Virus record (IMG/VR): IMGVR_UViG_3300032285_002723
Span: 24,645 to 88,644 of that record
DNA length: 64,000 nucleotides
Reading direction: 5' to 3' (one strand)
Source: a virus
Shown here piece by piece: positions 10,346 through 28,268 of the stretch; within the stretch, counting starts at the first letter, position 1, and each line of letters opens with the position of its first letter. A program made the translations under genes and the position numbers. A model generated the notes under the pieces. The model worked only from the letters and a program-made list of their open reading frames with translations. It ran no database searches and was not told the DNA's origin.

Positions 10346-10354
10346 TATAATAAA

Positions 10355-10381
10355 GGAGAAACTCTTCGGAGTTTCTTTTTT
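10355..10381 (+). terminator. psbA terminator
   Basis: AGAAACTC-TTCG-GAGTTTCT followed by a T tract (cUUCGg tetraloop). Confidence 0.85.
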
Positions 10382-10389
10382 TATAAATA
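10382..10389 (+). promoter_or_regulatory. T4-type late promoter of the homing endonuclease
   Basis: TATAAATA exact. Confidence 0.75.
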
Positions 10390-10412
10390 ATTATGCACGA
10401 AAGAAAACACGA

Positions 10413-16318: not shown

Positions 16319-17008
16319 ATGGAACCAACAGTTAGACTTATTTCTGCAACACCAGACGCAGAGAAGCATATTGCATATTGTGCTCGTGTAAGTAATCCAA
16401 AAAATCAAGAGAACTCAAATTTTGAAGGATTGCTTAAATATTGTATTAAAAACCAGCATTGGAGCATTTTTGAACATGCTTTCCTTACAGTTGAGATTAA
16501 CACCTCGTTGGCGATTGCTACGCAGATCTTGCGTCATAGGTCTTTCACCTTTCAACAATTTAGTCAAAGGTATGCTGATAGTACGGAACTTCAACTTGAA
16601 CTTCCTACGCCTGATCTTCGCCGCCAAGACACAAAGAATCGTCAAAATAGCACAGACGATCTTGACTATAACGTAAAAGTAAATCTTCAAGAAAGAATTC
16701 AAAAGCATTTTGAACGTTCTCTTTCTTTGTATAACGAAATGCTTGAGAAGGGTGTAGCAAAGGAATGTGCTAGGTTTGTTCTCCCACAGGCAACACAGAC
16801 CCGTTTGTATATGTCTGGTAGTCTTCGTAGTTGGATGCATTATATTGACCTTCGTAGTGCTCACGGCACCCAGAAGGAGCATATGGAGGTCGCAGAAGCA
16901 ATCCGTTGTATCTTTACCTGTCAGTTCCCTACCATCTCTTCTGCTCTTGGTTGGGGTAGGGAAAATTGTCCCGAATGTCAAGATGCCCCTTCTATTTGCA
17001 TAGAATAA
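16319..17008 (+). CDS. thyX: Flavin-dependent thymidylate synthase
   Basis: HWSIFEH; QILRHRSFTFQQFSQRY ThyX motif; ARFVLP. Confidence 0.93.
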   Translation: MEPTVRLISATPDAEKHIAYCARVSNPKNQENSNFEGLLKYCIKNQHWSIFEHAFLTVEINTSLAIATQILRHRSFTFQQFSQRYADSTELQLELPTPDLRRQDTKNRQNSTDDLDYNVKVNLQERIQKHFERSLSLYNEMLEKGVAKECARFVLPQATQTRLYMSGSLRSWMHYIDLRSAHGTQKEHMEVAEAIRCIFTCQFPTISSALGWGRENCPECQDAPSICIE

Positions 17009-17037
17009 ATATTTTTATATAAAATGGAGATTTAATT

Positions 17038-17280
17038 TTGGCAATTTATCCGATTATTCATAAAGAAACTGGTGAAACGAAAGTGATTGAAATGAGTGTT
17101 CACGATATCACCCAGTGGTATCAGGACAATCCCCAGTGGTCCAGAGATTGGTCACAAGGATCCGCAAGTCCAGGAGAGGTTGGTGAGTGGAAAGACAAAC
17201 TCATCAGTCGTAATCCTTCGTGGAATTCTGTACTTGAAAAAGCAGGAAAAATGCCTGGTTCATCTGTAAAAAAAATCTAA
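17038..17280 (+). CDS. Hypothetical protein (FmdB-like, upstream of phoH)
   Basis: TTG start with GGAG RBS after AATAAATA; usual position before phoH. Confidence 0.55.
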   Translation: MAIYPIIHKETGETKVIEMSVHDITQWYQDNPQWSRDWSQGSASPGEVGEWKDKLISRNPSWNSVLEKAGKMPGSSVKKI

Positions 17281-17289
17281 CAAAACATA

Positions 17290-18048
17290 ATGGCAAGACA
17301 ACGAAAGAGAAGTGGCGATCAACCAATTGGGGTTGATATGACTGCAAAACAATCAAAAAGAAAAAAACCAATCAATGCCGATTTACTAATAGATATTGAA
17401 CCCCTTACTGATAATCAAAAGAAACTTTTTGAATCTTATAGTGAAGGAAAACATTTAGTTGCTTATGGTGCTGCAGGAACAGGAAAAACTTTCATTAGTC
17501 TTTATAATGCCTTAAAGGATGTTTTGAATCCTATTACTCCCTATGAACAAATTTATATTGTTCGTTCTCTTGTAGCAACTCGTGAAATTGGATTTCTTCC
17601 TGGAGATCACGAAGATAAATCATCACTTTATCAAATTCCTTATAAGAATATGGTAAAGTATATGTTCCAGATGCCAAGTGATGCAGACTTTGAAATGCTT
17701 TATGCTGGATTAAAAGCACAAGAAACTGTTAAATTCTGGAGTACTTCATTTATTCGTGGAACAACTCTTGATAATTCAATTATTATTATTGACGAATTTC
17801 AAAATCTTAATTTTCACGAATTGGATTCTATTATTACTCGTGTTGGTGAAAACAGTAGAATTGTTTTTTGTGGAGATGCAAGTCAATCAGATTTACAAAA
17901 GGCAAATGAAAGAAATGGAATTGTTGATTTTATGAGTATTTTGCGTAAAATGCCATCTTTTGATATTGTTGAATTTGGTATTGATGATATTGTTCGTTCT
18001 GGACTTGTCAAAGAATACATTGTTGCCAAACTTGAACTCGGGTTGTAA
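17290..18048 (+). CDS. phoH: PhoH-like ATPase
   Basis: GAAGTGKT, REIGFLPG, RGTTL, DEFQN, GD..QSDL, VRSGLV. Confidence 0.93.
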   Translation: MARQRKRSGDQPIGVDMTAKQSKRKKPINADLLIDIEPLTDNQKKLFESYSEGKHLVAYGAAGTGKTFISLYNALKDVLNPITPYEQIYIVRSLVATREIGFLPGDHEDKSSLYQIPYKNMVKYMFQMPSDADFEMLYAGLKAQETVKFWSTSFIRGTTLDNSIIIIDEFQNLNFHELDSIITRVGENSRIVFCGDASQSDLQKANERNGIVDFMSILRKMPSFDIVEFGIDDIVRSGLVKEYIVAKLELGL

Positions 18049-18725
18049 TGTTTAACTATGTAGATTTGGATCTACCCCAATTGGAGAGGGAGACCATTGA
18101 TGGTGTAAGATATTATAAGGTTCCTAATGAGGATGAGTTAATTAAACTTGTCTCTATCACTTCTGTAACCAGTCATAAGAACCGTCAGTTCTTTGCTGAC
18201 TGGAGAAAGAAAGTAGGAGAAGAAAAAGCAAATAAAATCACAAAGCAAGCAACCAGTCGTGGGACTGATATGCACACACTTGCTGAAATGTATTTGAAGA
18301 ATGAAGAGTTCTCTTCTCAAGTTCTTCCAATTTCGCAAATGTTATTTGGAATTGCCAAACCTTATTTAAATAAAATAAATAATATTCACGCACTTGAAAA
18401 CTCTTTGTATAGCAAAGTTTTAGGTATTGCGGGAACTGTTGATTGTATTGCAGAATACGATGGTGAATTAGCAGTTATTGACTTCAAGACTTCAAAGAAA
18501 CCAAAACCAAGAGATTGGATTGAGCATTATTTCGTACAGTGTGCTGCTTATGCTTGCATGTTATATGAGATGACTGGTATAATGGTAAAGAAGTTTGTAA
18601 TCATAATGGCTTGTGAAAACGGAGAATGTGAAATTTATGAAGAATACGACAAAGGCAAGTACATCAAGTTACTCACCGAATATATTAGAGAATTTGTTAG
18701 AGATAAACTTCAGCAATATGAATGA
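18048..18725 (+). CDS. PD-(D/E)XK exonuclease (Cas4-like exonuclease of T4-like cyanophages)
   Basis: RGTDMH, AGTVDC, IDFKTS, Q..AY motifs. Confidence 0.82.
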   Translation: MFNYVDLDLPQLERETIDGVRYYKVPNEDELIKLVSITSVTSHKNRQFFADWRKKVGEEKANKITKQATSRGTDMHTLAEMYLKNEEFSSQVLPISQMLFGIAKPYLNKINNIHALENSLYSKVLGIAGTVDCIAEYDGELAVIDFKTSKKPKPRDWIEHYFVQCAAYACMLYEMTGIMVKKFVIIMACENGECEIYEEYDKGKYIKLLTEYIREFVRDKLQQYE

Positions 18726-18972
18726 TAAAATAAAGGAAGAATTGGACAGTAAATTTATCTGTCCTCAAAAATTTGCACAAGAGATTGAACAAATTGTAAA
18801 AAATTGTAAGGTCAATTATATTGATGCGATCATTAGTTATTGTGAAGAAAATTCAATTGAAATTGAAAGTGTATCTAAATTAGTTTCTAAACCACTAAAG
18901 GAGAAACTTAAAAATAATGCAACTGAACTTAACTTTTTAAAGAAAACTACTAAAGCACGTTTGCCTCTGTAA
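18718..18972 (+). CDS. gp33: Late transcription coactivator gp33
   Basis: YIDAI..YCEEN.IEIESV.KL.SKPLKEKL...A..LNFLK. Confidence 0.85.
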   Translation: MNDKIKEELDSKFICPQKFAQEIEQIVKNCKVNYIDAIISYCEENSIEIESVSKLVSKPLKEKLKNNATELNFLKKTTKARLPL

Positions 18973-18990
18973 TACTAAACTATATAATAA

Positions 18991-19048
18991 TGCCTGCGTT
19001 GGGTGCAATCTTCACAGGTGGAGAGGAGGCAGTAATGCCTCTTTTCTT
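18991..19048 (+). ncRNA. Putative small RNA (stem-loop plus terminator hairpin) with a loop antisense to the downstream nuclease leader
   Basis: TGCCTG/CAGGTG stem enclosing GTTGGGTGCA; GAGAGGAGGCA-GTAA-TGCCTCTTTTC hairpin; exact complement TGCACCCAAC at 19062-19071. Confidence 0.5.
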
Positions 19049-19049
19049 A

Positions 19050-19057
19050 TATAAATA
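19050..19057 (+). promoter_or_regulatory. T4-type late promoter of the inserted nuclease gene
   Basis: TATAAATA exact. Confidence 0.75.
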
Positions 19058-19082
19058 ATAATGCACCCAACTCAAGAGCAGA

Positions 19083-19691
19083 ATGTATTATGTTTATCTC
19101 TGGGTAAGAGAAGATAGAACACCCTATTACGTTGGTAAGGGTAAAGAATATAGAGCGTATGTAAAGCATATTTGGGGGAAAAGATGGATTTCTCCTCCAC
19201 CAAAAGATAGAATAGTAATAGTTAAATATTTTGATAATGAAGAAGAAAGTTATTTATTTGAAGAATGGTTAATATCTACATATAGAAGAAAAACTGAAGG
19301 TGGTATTCTTATTAATAGAAGTATAGGAGGAAGAAATAAATCAAGTTTAATAAGAAGCCAAACAGAAAAACAAAAATTGAGAAATGAATCTTTAAAAAAA
19401 TACAAACAATCTGAAAAAGGAAGAGAAACTCATAAAAAATGGGTGCAAGAAAATAAAGAAAAGGTAAGAGAAATTAAGAAAAAATATAGAGATAATAATA
19501 GAGAAAAATTAAATGAAAAAAGTAGAAATAGTAAAACAAAAAAAGAATTTAATAAAAATTATAGAGAAAAAAATAAAGAAAAAATGAAAAAATATCATAA
19601 ACAATATAGTGAAAAAAATAAAGAAAAATTAAGAGATTATTATAGGCAGTATTACCAAAAGAAAAAACTTGACGCAGAGAAAATCTCTTGA
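19083..19691 (+). CDS. GIY-YIG-like free-standing (homing) endonuclease with Lys/Glu-rich helical C-terminus
   Basis: YYVYLW...PYYVGKG..R and E..LI..Y...G.L.N motifs; lies between gp33 and gp59. Confidence 0.7.
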   Translation: MYYVYLWVREDRTPYYVGKGKEYRAYVKHIWGKRWISPPPKDRIVIVKYFDNEEESYLFEEWLISTYRRKTEGGILINRSIGGRNKSSLIRSQTEKQKLRNESLKKYKQSEKGRETHKKWVQENKEKVREIKKKYRDNNREKLNEKSRNSKTKKEFNKNYREKNKEKMKKYHKQYSEKNKEKLRDYYRQYYQKKKLDAEKIS

Positions 19692-19697
19692 TATAAT
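19669..19697 (+). promoter_or_regulatory. Sigma70 promoter in the 3' end of the nuclease gene, driving gp59
   Basis: TTGACG-17-TATAAT with extended TG. Confidence 0.7.
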
Positions 19698-19721
19698 ATA
19701 TTGATAAATGGAGATTGGTAA

Positions 19722-20312
19722 ATGTCCCCTTTTGAAGTTTATAAATTATATATTTCCATTAAAAATCATTTTTCTAACCCAAAATATGATTATTTTAAAT
19801 ACGGAGGAAAATCAAGAGTAACCGAAACTTCCTTCAAAAAAAGAAAAGATATTTACTGGTTTCAAAAAATATCTCGTCAGAAGAATGATGAAGAAATCAA
19901 AGCATATTTTGTAGCAAATTTTGCAGAATGTAATGACACACAATCTTTATGGATTGGTGAGATCATTCAAAATGGTGAAGAGATTTATAACAATTGGTTG
20001 AAGAAATCTCAAAGTCTTTTTTACTTATTCAAAACAGAAGCAGAAATTTTTATAAACAAAGATAGTTTTGTAGAATTATTTGAAATCAAAAACAATCAGC
20101 ATCCAGAAATTCTTAAAAAGTATTTTCAAGGAGCAATTAGTTTAGAGACTATGGTAATTCTTGATATGATATTGGGTTATGTAAAACAGTTTGATAAGAA
20201 ACTAACAGATCCAGTGTGGGAAACCGTCAGTTTAAGAATTCAAAAATATATGCCTTTCATAAATATTGATGTAGCAAAGTATAAGGAAGTTCTCAAGGAG
20301 ATTGTTTTATGA
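19722..20312 (+). CDS. gp59: Helicase loader gp59
   Basis: Y.SIKNHF...YDYFKY.GK...F.KRKD.YWF.K; ISLET. Confidence 0.85.
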   Translation: MSPFEVYKLYISIKNHFSNPKYDYFKYGGKSRVTETSFKKRKDIYWFQKISRQKNDEEIKAYFVANFAECNDTQSLWIGEIIQNGEEIYNNWLKKSQSLFYLFKTEAEIFINKDSFVELFEIKNNQHPEILKKYFQGAISLETMVILDMILGYVKQFDKKLTDPVWETVSLRIQKYMPFINIDVAKYKEVLKEIVL

Positions 20313-20641
20313 GTGGATTTTTTGATTCGGAAGTGGTTAGAGAATCAATGTCCGAACTGGATTCACTTCAAGAACAACTTTTTGTTGATATGCTTCGTCT
20401 TCCTATTTTGGATGTTGAAGAAAAGAGAGAACATCTTGAAATGATGACTGATTTCTTGGAAAAGCAAAAATTGTTTATCTTTAGACTTTCTTTGTCTGAT
20501 GATCCAAAAGCAATTGAAATGAAAGAGAAAGTTCTTGATTCTGCTAAAATGCTTGGTCTTAAGAAGGGTCAAACAATTAATGATTTTTACGATATAATGC
20601 AAAAAACCATTGATGGTCTTAAAGAAACACTTGACGACTGA
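20309..20641 (+). CDS. Conserved cyanobacterial/cyanophage protein (DUF1825-like)
   Basis: FFDSEVV...KQK.F.FRLSLSDDP.A. Confidence 0.7.
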   Translation: MSGFFDSEVVRESMSELDSLQEQLFVDMLRLPILDVEEKREHLEMMTDFLEKQKLFIFRLSLSDDPKAIEMKEKVLDSAKMLGLKKGQTINDFYDIMQKTIDGLKETLDD

Positions 20642-20659
20642 CCTCATACCTGCTACAAT
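20631..20659 (+). promoter_or_regulatory. Sigma70 promoter for gene 32
   Basis: TTGACG-17-TACAAT with extended TG. Confidence 0.7.
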
Positions 20660-20703
20660 TAATACGAAGAATACTTCAAATACTACTAATACGGAGAATA
20701 CGA

Positions 20704-21603
20704 ATGTCTTTTGCTGATCTTAAAAAGCAATCCAGTATGGGTTCTTTGACCGAGAAACTCATCAAACAAGTTGAAAAACTCAACGATTCTGGTTCTAAAG
20801 ATGATGATCGTTTTTGGAAACCAGTAATGGGTAAAGGTGATACAGGTTCTGCTGTTATTCGCTTCTTGCCTGCTCCAGAAGGATGTGAACTTCCTTGGGC
20901 ACAAGTGTGGTCTCACGCATTCCAAGGCACTGGTGGTTGGTTGATTGATGAATGCCTAACTACTCTTGGTCAAAATTGTCCTGTGTGTGAAAAGAATCGT
21001 GTTCTGTGGAACTCTGGTTCTGATCGTGATAAAGAAGAAGCACGTAAACAGAAGCGTAAACTGTCTTATTACAGCAACATCTATGTTGTAAAAGATCCTG
21101 CAAATCCTGCTAATGAAGGACGAGTGTTCCTTTATAAGTTTGGTAAGAAAATCTTTGATAAGATTATGGCTGCTATGCAACCAGAATTTGATGATGAAGA
21201 ACCAATCAATCCTTTTGATTTCTGGAAAGGTGCGAACTTCAAACTGAAATTGGTGAAGAAGGATGGTTATTGGAATTATGACAAGTCAGAGTTTGCAAGT
21301 CCAGAACCTCTTATGTCTGATGATGACGACCTGGAATCAATCTATAAGTCGCTGAATAATCTTGGTGATTTCACTGATCCTTCTAAATTCAAATCTTATG
21401 AAGATCTGAAGAAGCGTCTTGATTATGTTCTTGGTCTTCGTGGAACTCCAAAGTTGCAAGATCCAGAGACAGTTGATGAAGAGGAAGAAGTTGAAGTTTC
21501 ACGTCCTGTGCGGGAATCTGTTTCAGTTCGTCCTTCTGCTTCTAATGATGATGAGGACGAGGATGACGCAATGTCATACTTCCAGAAGTTGGCAGAGTCC
21601 TGA
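20704..21603 (+). CDS. gp32: Single-stranded DNA-binding protein gp32
   Basis: DDRFWKP, AVIRFLPAP, C..TLG..CPVC, KFGKKIFDKI, acidic tail. Confidence 0.95.
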   Translation: MSFADLKKQSSMGSLTEKLIKQVEKLNDSGSKDDDRFWKPVMGKGDTGSAVIRFLPAPEGCELPWAQVWSHAFQGTGGWLIDECLTTLGQNCPVCEKNRVLWNSGSDRDKEEARKQKRKLSYYSNIYVVKDPANPANEGRVFLYKFGKKIFDKIMAAMQPEFDDEEPINPFDFWKGANFKLKLVKKDGYWNYDKSEFASPEPLMSDDDDLESIYKSLNNLGDFTDPSKFKSYEDLKKRLDYVLGLRGTPKLQDPETVDEEEEVEVSRPVRESVSVRPSASNDDEDEDDAMSYFQKLAES

Positions 21604-26638: not shown

Positions 26639-28268
26639 TTCTTTATTTGCACCAGAAAAAATAATAGGTTCCCAGAAAGGAAGTAAAGAATCAGCACTGA
26701 ATTTTATTTCTGGTGGATCTCCTATTGGATTATCTATGCTTTCTGGTGCGAAGAATAATATTGTTGGATTTAATAGAGCAAAGATTTCACCAAAAAAGAA
26801 TAATTTGGGATCTTTGATTAGCACTTTAACTACTAATATTTTTAATAATACAAATTCAGTTTCAAATATTTTTGGAGATAAAAAAGAAAAATCAGAAAAA
26901 GGATTTAAACCATTTAATGGATTTTTTGATAAAGTAAAAGAAGCAATTGGATTTATTAGTTTCTTTGGTTCAAAGAAAAATTTAGATAAAATCAAAGAAA
27001 ATATAGAAAATTTAAAAACTACATTTACAGAAACATTTGATGTAGCAAAAGCATTAAGAAAAGCAATACTTAAAATCATAGAACAACTATCAGGGTTTTC
27101 TGGTGGTGGAGGTGGTGGAGGAATAATTGGTGCTATAATGTCAGCACTTGGTGGATTGGTTGGTGGATTGATTCCTGGAATGGGAGGAAAACGACCACCA
27201 AATGTTGCTGGTCCTGCAATGAAACAAGAAGGAAATTTACTATCAAAAATGCCAAAAGGATTAAAAGGTGGCGGTGGTGGAATTGGTAAATTGCTTTTGG
27301 GTGGTGCTGCTGCTGTTGGAACAGGTGCTGCTATAAGTGGTCTTTCGCAACCTGGCGGTGAAGATGTTCAACCTGGAGATACCGCACCAGAAGTTCCTGG
27401 AAATGTTCTTGATAAATTTAATTCAATTTTGGATAGATTTGATAAAATACTTGATGGATTGAAGGGAGGAAAGGGAACAAAAGGTTCAGGATCTGGAACA
27501 GGATCAAAGTCTTCTGGTTCTGGCACTACTCCTCCTGGTCCTAATCCGACAATAACACCAATTGATACTTCTGGGAAATTATCTGGTTCAACTGCAGCAC
27601 AGCAAGCATTTACATATTTTAAAAGTAAAGGGTTGTCTGATGAAGATTCTGCAGCAATTGTGGGAAATCTGTTGCAAGAAAACAGAGCAATGGATCCAAC
27701 ATTGACTAATAGTATTGGTATGAAGGGAATAGCACAATGGGATGCAAATAGATGGTCTGGTCTTCAAGCATTTGCAGAAAGTAAAGGATTAGATCCAAAT
27801 AAACGTGAAACTCAATTGCAATATGTTTATTATGAATTTGCTACTGGAAAAGGAGGACTTGGATTAAACAGATTGAAGGGAACTCCCGGAATTGAAGCAA
27901 AGACAAAACTTGTAAGAACAGATTATGAGAGACCAGGAGAAGCAGAAGCTAATGATGCACAGCGTCTTCAATATGCTAAAGATGTGATGAAATATTCTGG
28001 GAAAATACCTACAGCGCCAATAGCACCATCAGTAGAACAGTTGAGAAGAGCACCAGCAGCAAAAGCATCTGGAGCAGAAGCACCGCAAGTAAGTTTGGTT
28101 AATGTTGGTAGTGGAACACCACAAGCATCACCATCACGACCATCAAGCACAACTACACCACCATCACCAACTGGTGGAAATGGACCAACTACTCCATTTT
28201 TGCCTTCATATAATCCAGATAACTTCTTAACATTATATTCAAGAATGGTTTATAATATTGTCGGATAA
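26631..28268 (+). CDS. Tape-measure-like protein with a phage tail lysozyme domain
   Basis: Gly/Ala-rich helical region; AAIVGNL.QE...GIAQW..RW....QL.Y...E....YERP motif. Confidence 0.65.
   Translation: MRNSLFAPEKIIGSQKGSKESALNFISGGSPIGLSMLSGAKNNIVGFNRAKISPKKNNLGSLISTLTTNIFNNTNSVSNIFGDKKEKSEKGFKPFNGFFDKVKEAIGFISFFGSKKNLDKIKENIENLKTTFTETFDVAKALRKAILKIIEQLSGFSGGGGGGGIIGAIMSALGGLVGGLIPGMGGKRPPNVAGPAMKQEGNLLSKMPKGLKGGGGGIGKLLLGGAAAVGTGAAISGLSQPGGEDVQPGDTAPEVPGNVLDKFNSILDRFDKILDGLKGGKGTKGSGSGTGSKSSGSGTTPPGPNPTITPIDTSGKLSGSTAAQQAFTYFKSKGLSDEDSAAIVGNLLQENRAMDPTLTNSIGMKGIAQWDANRWSGLQAFAESKGLDPNKRETQLQYVYYEFATGKGGLGLNRLKGTPGIEAKTKLVRTDYERPGEAEANDAQRLQYAKDVMKYSGKIPTAPIAPSVEQLRRAPAAKASGAEAPQVSLVNVGSGTPQASPSRPSSTTTPPSPTGGNGPTTPFLPSYNPDNFLTLYSRMVYNIVG

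What the first reader, a model, noticed from the sequence alone, without database searches (positions are those of the whole stretch)
18975..19085. Small RNA antisense to its neighbouring nuclease mRNA: candidate RNA-controlled mobile nuclease module
Seen in order: AT-rich promoter-like CTATATAATA (18980-89); a stem TGCCTG/CAGGTG displaying GTTGGGTGCA (18998-19007) in its loop; an 11-bp GNRA-capped terminator-like hairpin (19021-19046); late promoter TATAAATA (19050); the exact complement TGCACCCAAC (19062-19071), with pairing extendable imperfectly through TCAAGAGCA to just before the ATG (19083) of a GIY-YIG-like nuclease. The GC-rich 10-mer complement in this AT-rich context is unlikely to be chance. 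Known: T4 nuclease genes use simple cis hairpins for late-only translation. The difference here is that the antisense arm has its own stem and terminator. Inference: it is a discrete ~58-nt RNA acting in trans on the late mRNA (antitoxin or immunity-like), or a cis switch on read-through RNA, or, more speculatively, a guide bound by the protein. This is my best candidate for an undescribed system.
Basis: partly seen in the sequence, partly recalled or inferred. Interest (0 to 1): 0.8.

Follow-up and report, generated by a model that had tools for sequence, protein, structure and literature searches.

The report
Portable RNA mask before phage nuclease
The region is the conserved, movable ~110-base control module of a selfish DNA-cutting (homing endonuclease) gene inserted into a T4-like cyanophage. 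Its upstream strand base-pairs with the nuclease mRNA's leader, an elaboration of a known phage T4 trick. It may also be released as a ~55-base regulatory RNA, which has not been shown.

Summary
The 10-nt complement alone is not rare: the window holds 103 inverted repeats of that size. Comparison makes it real. In 101 distinct copies from viral contigs all 10 pairs of the loop/leader helix change on both sides and stay 99% paired.

The module belongs to a ~750-bp GIY-YIG homing-endonuclease cassette inserted exactly at the overlapping gp33 stop/gp59 start. A relative with 99% identical gp33 lacks it. The same leader precedes other GIY-YIG and NUMOD3 nucleases and one TnpB. Six copies lie in the cultured freshwater phage S-SRM01.

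Best reading: a T4-type translational mask (as at I-TevI, segB, Aeh1 mobE) with a late promoter TATAAATA inside it, plus a nested intrinsic terminator.

Beyond the known kind:
- a late-type box lies 4 nt before the mask strand; in this window it is a TATAAT-like variant;
- a 5' hairpin (P1) covaries but is incompatible with the mask.

Together these argue that a ~55-nt two-hairpin RNA is made. Action in trans is plausible but untested; no RNA data were available.

Dassa et al. 2009 already saw hairpins with TATAAATA before such genes. This scan has found the same cassette before on other DNA, in at least 39 genomes. Verdict: new variant of a known kind.

The parts
18721..18972 (+). gp33, late-transcription coactivator; left flank of the insertion
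   Evidence: Pfam PF16805, E = 4.5e-29. In most relatives its stop overlaps the gp59 start.
18971..19721 (+). Inserted homing-endonuclease cassette: leader, nuclease ORF and outward promoter. It is absent from L009.
   Evidence: L009 has 99% identical gp33 and the junction ...CTCTGT|GACACC with overlapping GTGA. The window diverges from base 18971, and similarity resumes at the gp59 start.
18979..18986 (+). Upstream box ACTATATA, a variant of the family's N[A/C]TAAATA late-type box. Together with 18983-18988 it reads as a sigma-70 -10 element, TATAAT.
   Evidence: Among 142 copies the box is NATAAATA in 98, NCTAAATA in 36 and the TATATA type in 6. It lies 4 nt before X in 88 of 91. The sigma-70-like match TTGCCT-16-TATAAT is not above chance.
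18991..18996 (+). X, UGCCUG: the 5' strand of hairpin P1, and alternatively the partner of the purine tract Z
   Evidence: X:Y is 95% paired, with compensatory variants. In X:Z, pair 23/190 reads GC 79, GU 9, AU 8.
18998..19007 (+). 5' arm (anti-leader), displayed in the loop of P1
   Evidence: Perfect complement of 19062-19071. All 10 pairs show changes on both sides, and 99.1% of cells are paired in 101 distinct copies.
19015..19019 (+). Y, CAGGU: the 3' strand of P1
   Evidence: Variant pairings are CCUU/AAGG, CCUA/UAGG, GCUU/AAGC and CUCUA/UAGAG.
19020..19049 (+). Intrinsic terminator: a 12-bp hairpin with GUAA loop whose U-rich 3' side runs on as UUUUCUUAU
   Evidence: Fold. The stem sequence differs between copies with compensatory change, and CTTTTC is invariant in A1. 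The last 9 nt carry 5-7 U in 72 of 94 copies.
19050..19057 (+). Late promoter box TATAAATA, lying between the two arms
   Evidence: Present in 138 of 142 copies. It is one of only 5 in the window, all on the + strand. NATAAATA boxes precede ORFs throughout the window. It is the cyanomyovirus late promoter motif (PMC2984593).
19062..19071 (+). 3' arm (leader), predicted to be the 5' end of the late mRNA
   Evidence: The arm starts 4-5 nt after the box in 80 of 91 copies. For covariation see the 5' arm.
19074..19081 (+). Z, AAGAGCAG: a Shine-Dalgarno-like purine tract partly covered by the helix extension
   Evidence: The minimum-energy fold pairs UGC with GCA and CU with AG. UAC copies have GUA in 8 of 9, never GCA.
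19083..19691 (+). GIY-YIG homing endonuclease, 202 aa, with a Lys-rich repeated C-terminal part
   Evidence: PHROG 10829. The profile of relatives matches PDB GIY-YIG chain 9u75 at E = 1.4e-4. Y, Y, G, R, E and N are invariant. Distant relatives carry NUMOD3.
19669..19697 (+). Sigma-70-type promoter TTGACG-17-TATAAT inside the nuclease 3' end, re-driving gp59
   Evidence: Matches 11 of 12 positions, with a TG extension. A TTGACN-17-TA(T/A)AAT is present at the right end of five related cassettes, even where the surrounding sequence differs.
19722..20312 (+). gp59, helicase loader; right flank of the insertion
   Evidence: Pfam PF08993 and PF08994.

Best explanation
Bases 18975-19082 are the 5' control module of a free-standing GIY-YIG homing-endonuclease cassette that inserted at the gp33/gp59 junction of a T4-like cyanomyovirus.

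The module encodes an RNA mask. The upstream strand (UGCCUG plus the 10-nt arm) pairs with the mRNA leader (the complementary arm plus the purine tract AAGAGCA just before the AUG).

Transcripts that enter from upstream are mostly stopped at the intrinsic terminator nested between the arms. Those that read through fold into the long helix and are poorly translated.

The late promoter TATAAATA lies inside the structure. Late mRNA therefore starts at the leader arm, lacks the mask strand and can be translated. This is the T4 I-TevI / Aeh1 mobE logic. The cassette also carries an outward sigma-70-type promoter at its right end that restores gp59 expression.

Shown here:
- the insertion;
- the pairing, by covariation;
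- the conserved boxes and their spacing;
- the terminator-like hairpin.

Inferred: promoter use, termination, the effect on translation.

The mask strand is also packaged as its own unit: a promoter box, then the 5' hairpin P1, then the terminator. A two-hairpin RNA of about 55-60 nt is therefore probably made, and it may mask the late mRNA in trans as well.
For: - **Insertion.** Relative L009 has 99% identical gp33 and overlapping gp33/gp59 (GTGA), with no cassette.
- **Pairing.** Four different perfectly complementary arm pairs were seen already among close relatives. In 75 pattern-found copies, 73 have a perfect complement of 9-13 nt, with 23 distinct arm sequences. Formal count: all 10 pairs change on both sides and 99.1% of cells pair, against 40-50% when partners are slid.
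- **Extension into the purine tract.** Pair 23/190 reads GC 79, GU 9, AU 8, and one copy has C-G in place of U-A.
- **Late promoter inside.** TATAAATA is present in 138 of 142 copies. NATAAATA boxes precede ORFs in this window. The motif is the cyanomyovirus late promoter (PMC2984593).
- **Terminator.** The stem is compensatory and U-rich 3' ends are conserved.
- **Known precedent.** PMC2988022 (I-TevI, I-TevII, I-TevIII, segB, Aeh1 mobE) and PMC2677866.
- **Outward promoter.** Conserved across related cassettes.
- **Short RNA.** The upstream box lies 4 nt before X in 88 of 91 copies. P1 is kept by compensatory change. All 94 distinct copies fold as a 5'-terminal hairpin plus terminator. The intermolecular duplex is favoured by about 11 kcal/mol.
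Against: - There are no transcript data, so promoter use, termination efficiency and translation effects are all inferred.
- The perfect helix ends 12 nt before the AUG, and the Shine-Dalgarno-like tract is covered only by imperfect pairs. In the consensus type only 3 contiguous pairs plus wobbles cover it. This is weaker occlusion than in the T4 examples.
- A conserved promoter box directly before the mask strand, and a covarying hairpin P1 that is incompatible with the mask, are not needed in a pure cis model.
- In this window the upstream box is the TATATA variant, whose promoter class is unknown.
Confidence: 0.62

Rival explanations
1. The main function is in trans. The upstream box, P1 and the terminator form a small-RNA gene. 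Its ~55-60-nt product carries the anti-leader in the P1 loop and pairs with the first 10-20 nt of the late nuclease mRNA. This keeps translation of a potentially harmful nuclease low, in the manner of a type I toxin-antitoxin pair. Cis masking of read-through RNA would then be a by-product.
For: - The upstream box N[A/C]TAAATA is conserved in 134 of 142 copies at fixed spacing and was not part of the search pattern. Both box types precede ORFs in this window.
- P1 is maintained by compensatory changes although it cannot coexist with the mask helix. The loop-crossing linker is only 0-2 nt for a 10-11-bp helix. This implies selection on the unpaired, terminated form.
- Both complementary strands begin 4-5 nt after a late-type box, that is, at the predicted 5' ends of two separate RNAs.
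- The two-hairpin fold is universal, and the trans duplex is favoured.
Against: - No RNA has been observed.
- Copies within one contig are not more orthogonal than chance: 2 cross-matching pairs observed against 3.5 expected, P = 0.29.
- Upstream halves without a nuclease are rare, 2 of 143, so there is no sign of an independently kept 'immunity' RNA.
- In this window the upstream box is not a canonical late box.
- Cis masking explains the arm covariation equally well.
Confidence: 0.3
2. Transcriptional insulation only. The module would be a terminator plus promoters that isolate the cassette from the host operon, possibly with occlusion of the inner promoter by polymerases stopping at the abutting U tract. 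The complementarity would have no regulatory role.
For: The terminator abuts TATAAATA. A native terminator-TATAAATA module exists elsewhere in the window, at 10351-10394. The cassette carries a replacement promoter for gp59.
Against: This does not explain why 10-13 nt on either side of the terminator stay perfectly complementary through at least 23 different sequences. It also does not explain the X:Z and X:Y covariation.
Confidence: 0.04
3. The short RNA is a guide or cofactor bound by the nuclease protein.
For: Only adjacency. One copy precedes a TnpB gene.
Against: The same leader, even the same arm sequence, precedes unrelated proteins: several GIY-YIG lineages, NUMOD3 proteins and TnpB. 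The closest cultured homologue of the window's nuclease (ACG-2014f, 47% identity) has no such leader. The complementarity is to the gene's own leader, not to a target site.
Confidence: 0.01

Closest known systems
Late-promoter-in-hairpin translational masks of T-even homing endonuclease genes: T4 I-TevI, I-TevII, I-TevIII and segB; mobE of Aeromonas phage Aeh1 (reviewed in PMC2988022)
   Same: An RNA helix involves the translation start region of a homing endonuclease gene. A late promoter TATAAATA is placed so that late transcripts lack the 5' strand. The module travels with the selfish gene. Promoters for the downstream host gene are embedded at the end of the nuclease gene.
   Different: - An intrinsic terminator is nested between the arms.
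- A conserved late-type box lies directly before the mask strand.
- A second, covarying hairpin (P1) competes with the mask.
- The perfect helix lies next to the ribosome site rather than over it.
- One homologous leader is shared by many nuclease families, with many stem sequences.
Hairpins with TATAAATA and two complementary motifs in the 5' UTRs of free-standing endonucleases of metagenomic 'fractured gene' loci (Dassa et al. 2009, PMC2677866)
   Same: The setting is cyanophage-like environmental loci with free-standing homing endonucleases. There is a hairpin before the start codon containing TATAAATA, with complementary conserved motifs on the stem, interpreted as a translational regulatory hairpin brought in by the endonuclease.
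   Different: I could not check sequence identity with those hairpins, because the figures and supplement are not held. That paper does not mention an upstream promoter box, a nested terminator, P1, or a possible separate RNA.
CfrI antisense RNA of cyanophage S-PM2 (PMC2984593, PMC12197685)
   Same: It is an RNA regulator associated with a homing endonuclease gene in a T4-like cyanophage.
   Different: CfrI is about 225 nt and is transcribed from the opposite strand across the endonuclease gene and psbA. The candidate RNA here lies on the same strand, upstream, is about 55 nt, and is complementary through an inverted repeat.
Type I toxin-antitoxin pairs with a limited-complementarity small-RNA antitoxin (reviewed in PMC4147584; the example of RalR/RalA, a DNase toxin with a small-RNA antitoxin, is from my own knowledge and was not checked)
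   Same: A short structured RNA with its own promoter and terminator could pair with the translation start region of a neighbouring, potentially harmful protein gene.
   Different: Toxicity has not been tested. The RNA has not been observed. RNA and target are in tandem on one strand. A cis form of the same pairing exists.

Membership tests
T4-type homing-endonuclease translational mask with internal late promoter | RNA helix that includes or abuts the ribosome binding site or start codon of a homing endonuclease gene | tested here: met
   The 10-bp helix ends 12 nt before the AUG. Its extension into AAGAGCA appears in the fold. Covariation supports the helix and the UGC:GCA extension. Occlusion of the purine tract is only partial.
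T4-type homing-endonuclease translational mask with internal late promoter | Late promoter placed so that late transcripts lack the 5' strand of the helix | tested here: met
   TATAAATA at 19050-19057 lies between the arms. The 3' arm starts 4-5 nt after the box in 80 of 91 copies. This is sequence evidence only.
T4-type homing-endonuclease translational mask with internal late promoter | Longer early or middle transcripts carry the mask and are translationally silent | not testable with these tools
   No RNA data. The nested terminator suggests that read-through is limited.
Free-standing GIY-YIG homing endonuclease | GIY-YIG catalytic domain | tested here: met
   There is no Pfam hit for the single sequence. 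The family profile matches PDB GIY-YIG chain 9u75 at E = 1.4e-4. The Tyr, Tyr, Gly, Arg, Glu and Asn positions are invariant.
Free-standing GIY-YIG homing endonuclease | Presence/absence polymorphism at a precise site between conserved host genes | tested here: met
   L009 and about 60 other relatives have gp33 and gp59 overlapping. The window and seven loci carry the cassette at that exact point, and L030 carries a different GIY-YIG gene there.
Free-standing GIY-YIG homing endonuclease | Cleavage of the empty site and homing | not testable with these tools
   Needs an enzyme assay or a co-infection cross.
Trans-acting small regulatory RNA (type I antitoxin-like) | Own promoter | tested here: inconclusive
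   At family level a late-type box lies at fixed spacing. The window has the variant ACTATATA, which reads as TATAAT with a chance-level -35 element. There are no start-site data.
Trans-acting small regulatory RNA (type I antitoxin-like) | Own intrinsic terminator giving a discrete RNA | tested here: inconclusive
   The hairpin and U tract are conserved. A discrete RNA has not been observed.
Trans-acting small regulatory RNA (type I antitoxin-like) | Complementarity to the target's translation start region | tested here: met
   A perfect complement of 9-14 nt is present in 129 of 142 copies. Cofolding favours the duplex.
Any Rfam family | Covariance-model match | tested here: not met
   No match overlaps 18975-19085 even at E up to 10.

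The most novel reading that the evidence does not exclude
Each cassette encodes a dedicated trans-acting small RNA, made from its own promoter, that is cognate to its own homing-endonuclease mRNA through a variable 10-12-nt 'address'. This would be a family of phage-borne, type-I-antitoxin-like RNA leashes that let many selfish nucleases coexist in one genome, up to six per phage.
Probability: 0.3. Interest if true: 0.75.

Novelty: new variant of a known kind. Interest (0 to 1): 0.58.

Why it matters
Homing endonucleases must be expressed at the right time and at a low dose to spread without harming their phage. This module shows a compact solution that travels with the gene and has been re-used by many nuclease families in freshwater T4-like cyanophages.

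It has three helices supported by covariation, two of them mutually exclusive, and two tandem late-type promoters. That makes it a well-defined candidate for a phage-encoded small RNA that controls a selfish gene.

The module is not in Rfam. The small-RNA reading did not turn up in the papers I searched and read. Six copies lie in the cultured phage S-SRM01, so the question can be tested directly at the bench. If only the cis mask operates, this is a well-documented extension of textbook T4 regulation to cyanophages.

Tried and rejected
- **Rfam.** A scan of 17000-21000 at E up to 10 found nothing at the site.
- **BLAST of the leader against cultured phages.** No match. The covariance model later found six copies in S-SRM01. 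It found none in ACG-2014f, DSL-LC02, AG-345-L05 or P-SSM2.
- **Is the leader a property of this nuclease family?** No. The 47%-identical ACG-2014f homologue has only a TATAAT-type promoter.
- **Within-contig orthogonality of arm sequences**, as a test for trans action: not significant, P = 0.16-0.30.
- **Orphan mask halves**, as a test for an 'immunity' RNA: only 2 of 143, and both look like decay products.
- **Strand of the upstream neighbour**, as a test for read-through: too noisy to use.
- **Antiterminator idea** (X pairing with the terminator's 5' strand): it fits this allele only and is not conserved across terminator sequences (read), so rejected.
- **Leader peptide.** The ATG at 18990 is not conserved; the base before TGCCTG varies A/G/T/C. 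Rejected.
- **Pattern scan of cellular genomes.** 120 hits, all chance.
- **Inverted repeat at 26643/26735.** It lies inside a coding region and is unrelated.
- **Structure for the upstream-half alignment.** RNAalifold gave no consensus pairs on the MAFFT alignment, so model R2 is sequence-only.

Full report
**What is in the sequence.** The window is part of an 88.6-kb viral record from a T4-like cyanomyovirus. The local gene order is:
- thyX;
- phoH;
- a PD-(D/E)XK exonuclease;
- gp33 (18721-18972);
- a 202-aa ORF (19083-19691);
- gp59 (19722-20312);
- a DUF1825 protein;
- gp32.

The minimum-energy fold of 18973-19100 puts a 12-bp hairpin with a GUAA loop (19020-19047) inside the 10-bp helix 18998-19007/19062-19071. 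It extends that helix imperfectly over AAGAGCA, just before the AUG. The energy is -43.8 kcal/mol, z = -5.28. Rfam has nothing here.

Taken alone, the 10-nt complement is not rare. The window has 103 inverted repeats with seeds of 10 nt or more within 120 nt. The sigma-70-like match at 18961-18988 is at chance level.

**It is a mobile cassette.** Eighty relatives of gp33 were fetched. In about sixty of them the gp33 stop overlaps the gp59 start. L009 has 99% identical gp33 and reads ...CTCTGT|GACACC with overlapping GTGA. The window diverges from base 18971 and resumes at the gp59 start.

So about 750 bp are an insertion: leader, ORF and a strong sigma-70-type promoter (TTGACG-17-TATAAT, 19669-19697) followed by GGAG for gp59. 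A TTGACN-17-TA(T/A)AAT element lies at the right end of five related cassettes, even where the surrounding sequence differs. This matches the 'embedded promoter' theme for T4 seg and mob genes (PMC2988022).

The ORF is a GIY-YIG nuclease. A profile of 20 relatives matches PDB GIY-YIG chain 9u75 at E = 1.4e-4. Tyr, Tyr, Gly, Arg, Glu and Asn positions are invariant, and distant relatives carry NUMOD3.

**The leader is a widespread, portable module.** Seven loci with a close homologue of the nuclease share the leader. Two of them have different but again perfectly complementary arms. A different GIY-YIG gene at the same site (L030) has the same leader with yet another arm pair.

Of 83 distinct matches, 75 are genuine. 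A covariance model then found 142 copies, 101 of them distinct, in 0.9 Mb of those loci. Up to six copies lie in 14 kb. A complete 234-kb record holds four. The cultured freshwater phage S-SRM01 holds six.

Proteins found behind the leader include PF01541 GIY-YIG nucleases, NUMOD3 proteins and one TnpB. The closest cultured homologue of the window's nuclease (ACG-2014f, 47% identity) lacks the leader. The same pattern in 596 Gb of cellular genomes gave 120 hits. None has the arms or the upstream box, which serves as a negative control.

**Three helices are supported by covariation.**
- *Arm:arm.* All 10 pairs change on both sides. 99.1% of cells pair, against 40-50% when partners are slid by 1-3 columns. 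On an independent MAFFT alignment the figure is 95%. There are 23 distinct arm sequences.
- *Terminator stem.* The stem sequence varies and keeps pairing, followed by a U-rich tail.
- *Two alternative partners for X (UGCCUG).* With Y (CAGGU) it forms the 5' hairpin P1. P1 is 95% paired, with variants CCUU/AAGG, CCUA/UAGG, GCUU/AAGC and CUCUA/UAGAG. With Z it extends the mask into the purine tract. UGC pairs with GCA, and pair 23/190 reads GC 79, GU 9, AU 8. UAC copies have GUA in 8 of 9 and never GCA, and one CGC copy has GCG.

P1 and the mask cannot coexist. The arm sits in the P1 loop, and the linker that would have to cross a 10-11-bp helix is 0-2 nt long. This last point is my inference from the geometry.

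**Promoter boxes.** TATAAATA lies between the arms in 138 of 142 copies. A second box, N[A/C]TAAATA, lies 4 nt before X in 88 of 91 copies. It was not part of my search pattern. NATAAATA is the reported cyanomyovirus late promoter (PMC2984593).

In this window NATAAATA occurs 19 times on the + strand, and 12 of those are 14-50 nt before an ORF. CTAAATA boxes also precede ORFs. T4 late promoters lie about one helical turn before the start site (PMC2988020). Both complementary strands therefore begin at about the predicted 5' ends of two RNAs.

The window belongs to the minority with ACTATATA. All 5 ACTATATA copies in the 142-copy set, and all pattern-found ones I could place, sit at the gp33/gp59 site. 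This variant reads as a sigma-70 -10 element, TATAAT, and its promoter class is unknown.

**Mechanism.** The safest reading is the known T4-family logic (PMC2988022). RNA coming from upstream is terminated or, if it reads through, masked. RNA started at the inner late promoter lacks the mask strand.

The upstream box and the covarying P1 are not needed for that. They indicate selection on the terminated RNA. That RNA folds as a 5'-terminal hairpin plus terminator in all 94 distinct copies tested. Its duplex with the late mRNA is about 11 kcal/mol more stable than the two RNAs apart. I therefore think a ~55-60-nt RNA is probably made. Whether it acts in trans is open.

Two tests that could have favoured trans action gave nothing:
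- Arm sequences within one contig are not more different than chance.
- Mask halves without a nuclease are rare, 2 of 143.

RNA data could not be obtained.

**Prior knowledge.** Dassa et al. 2009 (PMC2677866) reported hairpins before the start codons of free-standing endonucleases in cyanophage-like metagenomic loci. Ten of these contained TATAAATA, and two conserved motifs complemented each other on the stem. They read them as Aeh1-mobE-like translational hairpins. I could not compare sequences, because the figures are not held.

A 2025 review of phage small RNAs lists only CfrI for cyanophage homing endonucleases (PMC12197685). This scan has noted the same cassette before, in at least 39 other genomes, with the same reading. 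I reached mine before looking and tested the claims independently here.

**Verdict.** This is a new variant of a known kind: a T4-type homing-endonuclease mask elaborated by a nested terminator, an upstream late-type box and a competing 5' hairpin. The candidate small RNA awaits RNA evidence.

Noticed in passing
L128:5144-6461 (- strand), viral record G004: The same leader, with arm GTTTGTTCGCA, stands directly before a 399-aa TnpB-like gene. That gene carries OrfB_IS605, Cas12f1-like TNB and HTH_OrfB_IS605 domains. The module is therefore not restricted to classical homing endonucleases.
   Followed up: partly
L221-L226 (Synechococcus phage S-SRM01, MW015081.1: 17945, 48425, 51239, 55951, 62398, 192413): A cultured freshwater cyanophage carries six copies of the cassette. 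Each has a different arm sequence and its own nuclease ORF. The genome paper (PMC8557907) does not mention them.
   Followed up: partly
window 19669-19713: A strong sigma-70-type promoter and a GGAG lie inside and just after the nuclease 3' end and serve gp59. gp59 was translationally coupled to gp33 before the insertion. The promoter is conserved in related cassettes whose right ends otherwise differ.
   Followed up: yes
window 10351-10394: A native module consisting of a terminator hairpin, a U tract and TATAAATA, without flanking complementary arms. It matches only the middle of the covariance model (18 bits).
   Followed up: no
window, whole: TATAAATA occurs only 5 times, against 9.5 expected from shuffles, and always on the + strand. 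NATAAATA occurs 19 times on the + strand and 4 times on the - strand, mostly 14-50 nt before ORF starts.
   Followed up: partly
L189:1610-1674 (-) and L145:11205-11317 (-): These are two decayed copies. The first keeps the box, P1, the arm and the terminator but has lost the leader arm and the nuclease ORF. The second keeps the upstream half and now precedes a D12-class adenine methyltransferase gene.
   Followed up: partly
L091 (14.4 kb) and L178 (7.8 kb): Dense arrays of six and four cassettes on one strand, each with a different arm sequence.
   Followed up: partly
window 19380-19691: The C-terminal half of the nuclease is Lys-rich, with a repeated ...NKEK...KKY... motif. It has no Pfam match. 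More distant relatives have NUMOD3 repeats at this position.
   Followed up: no
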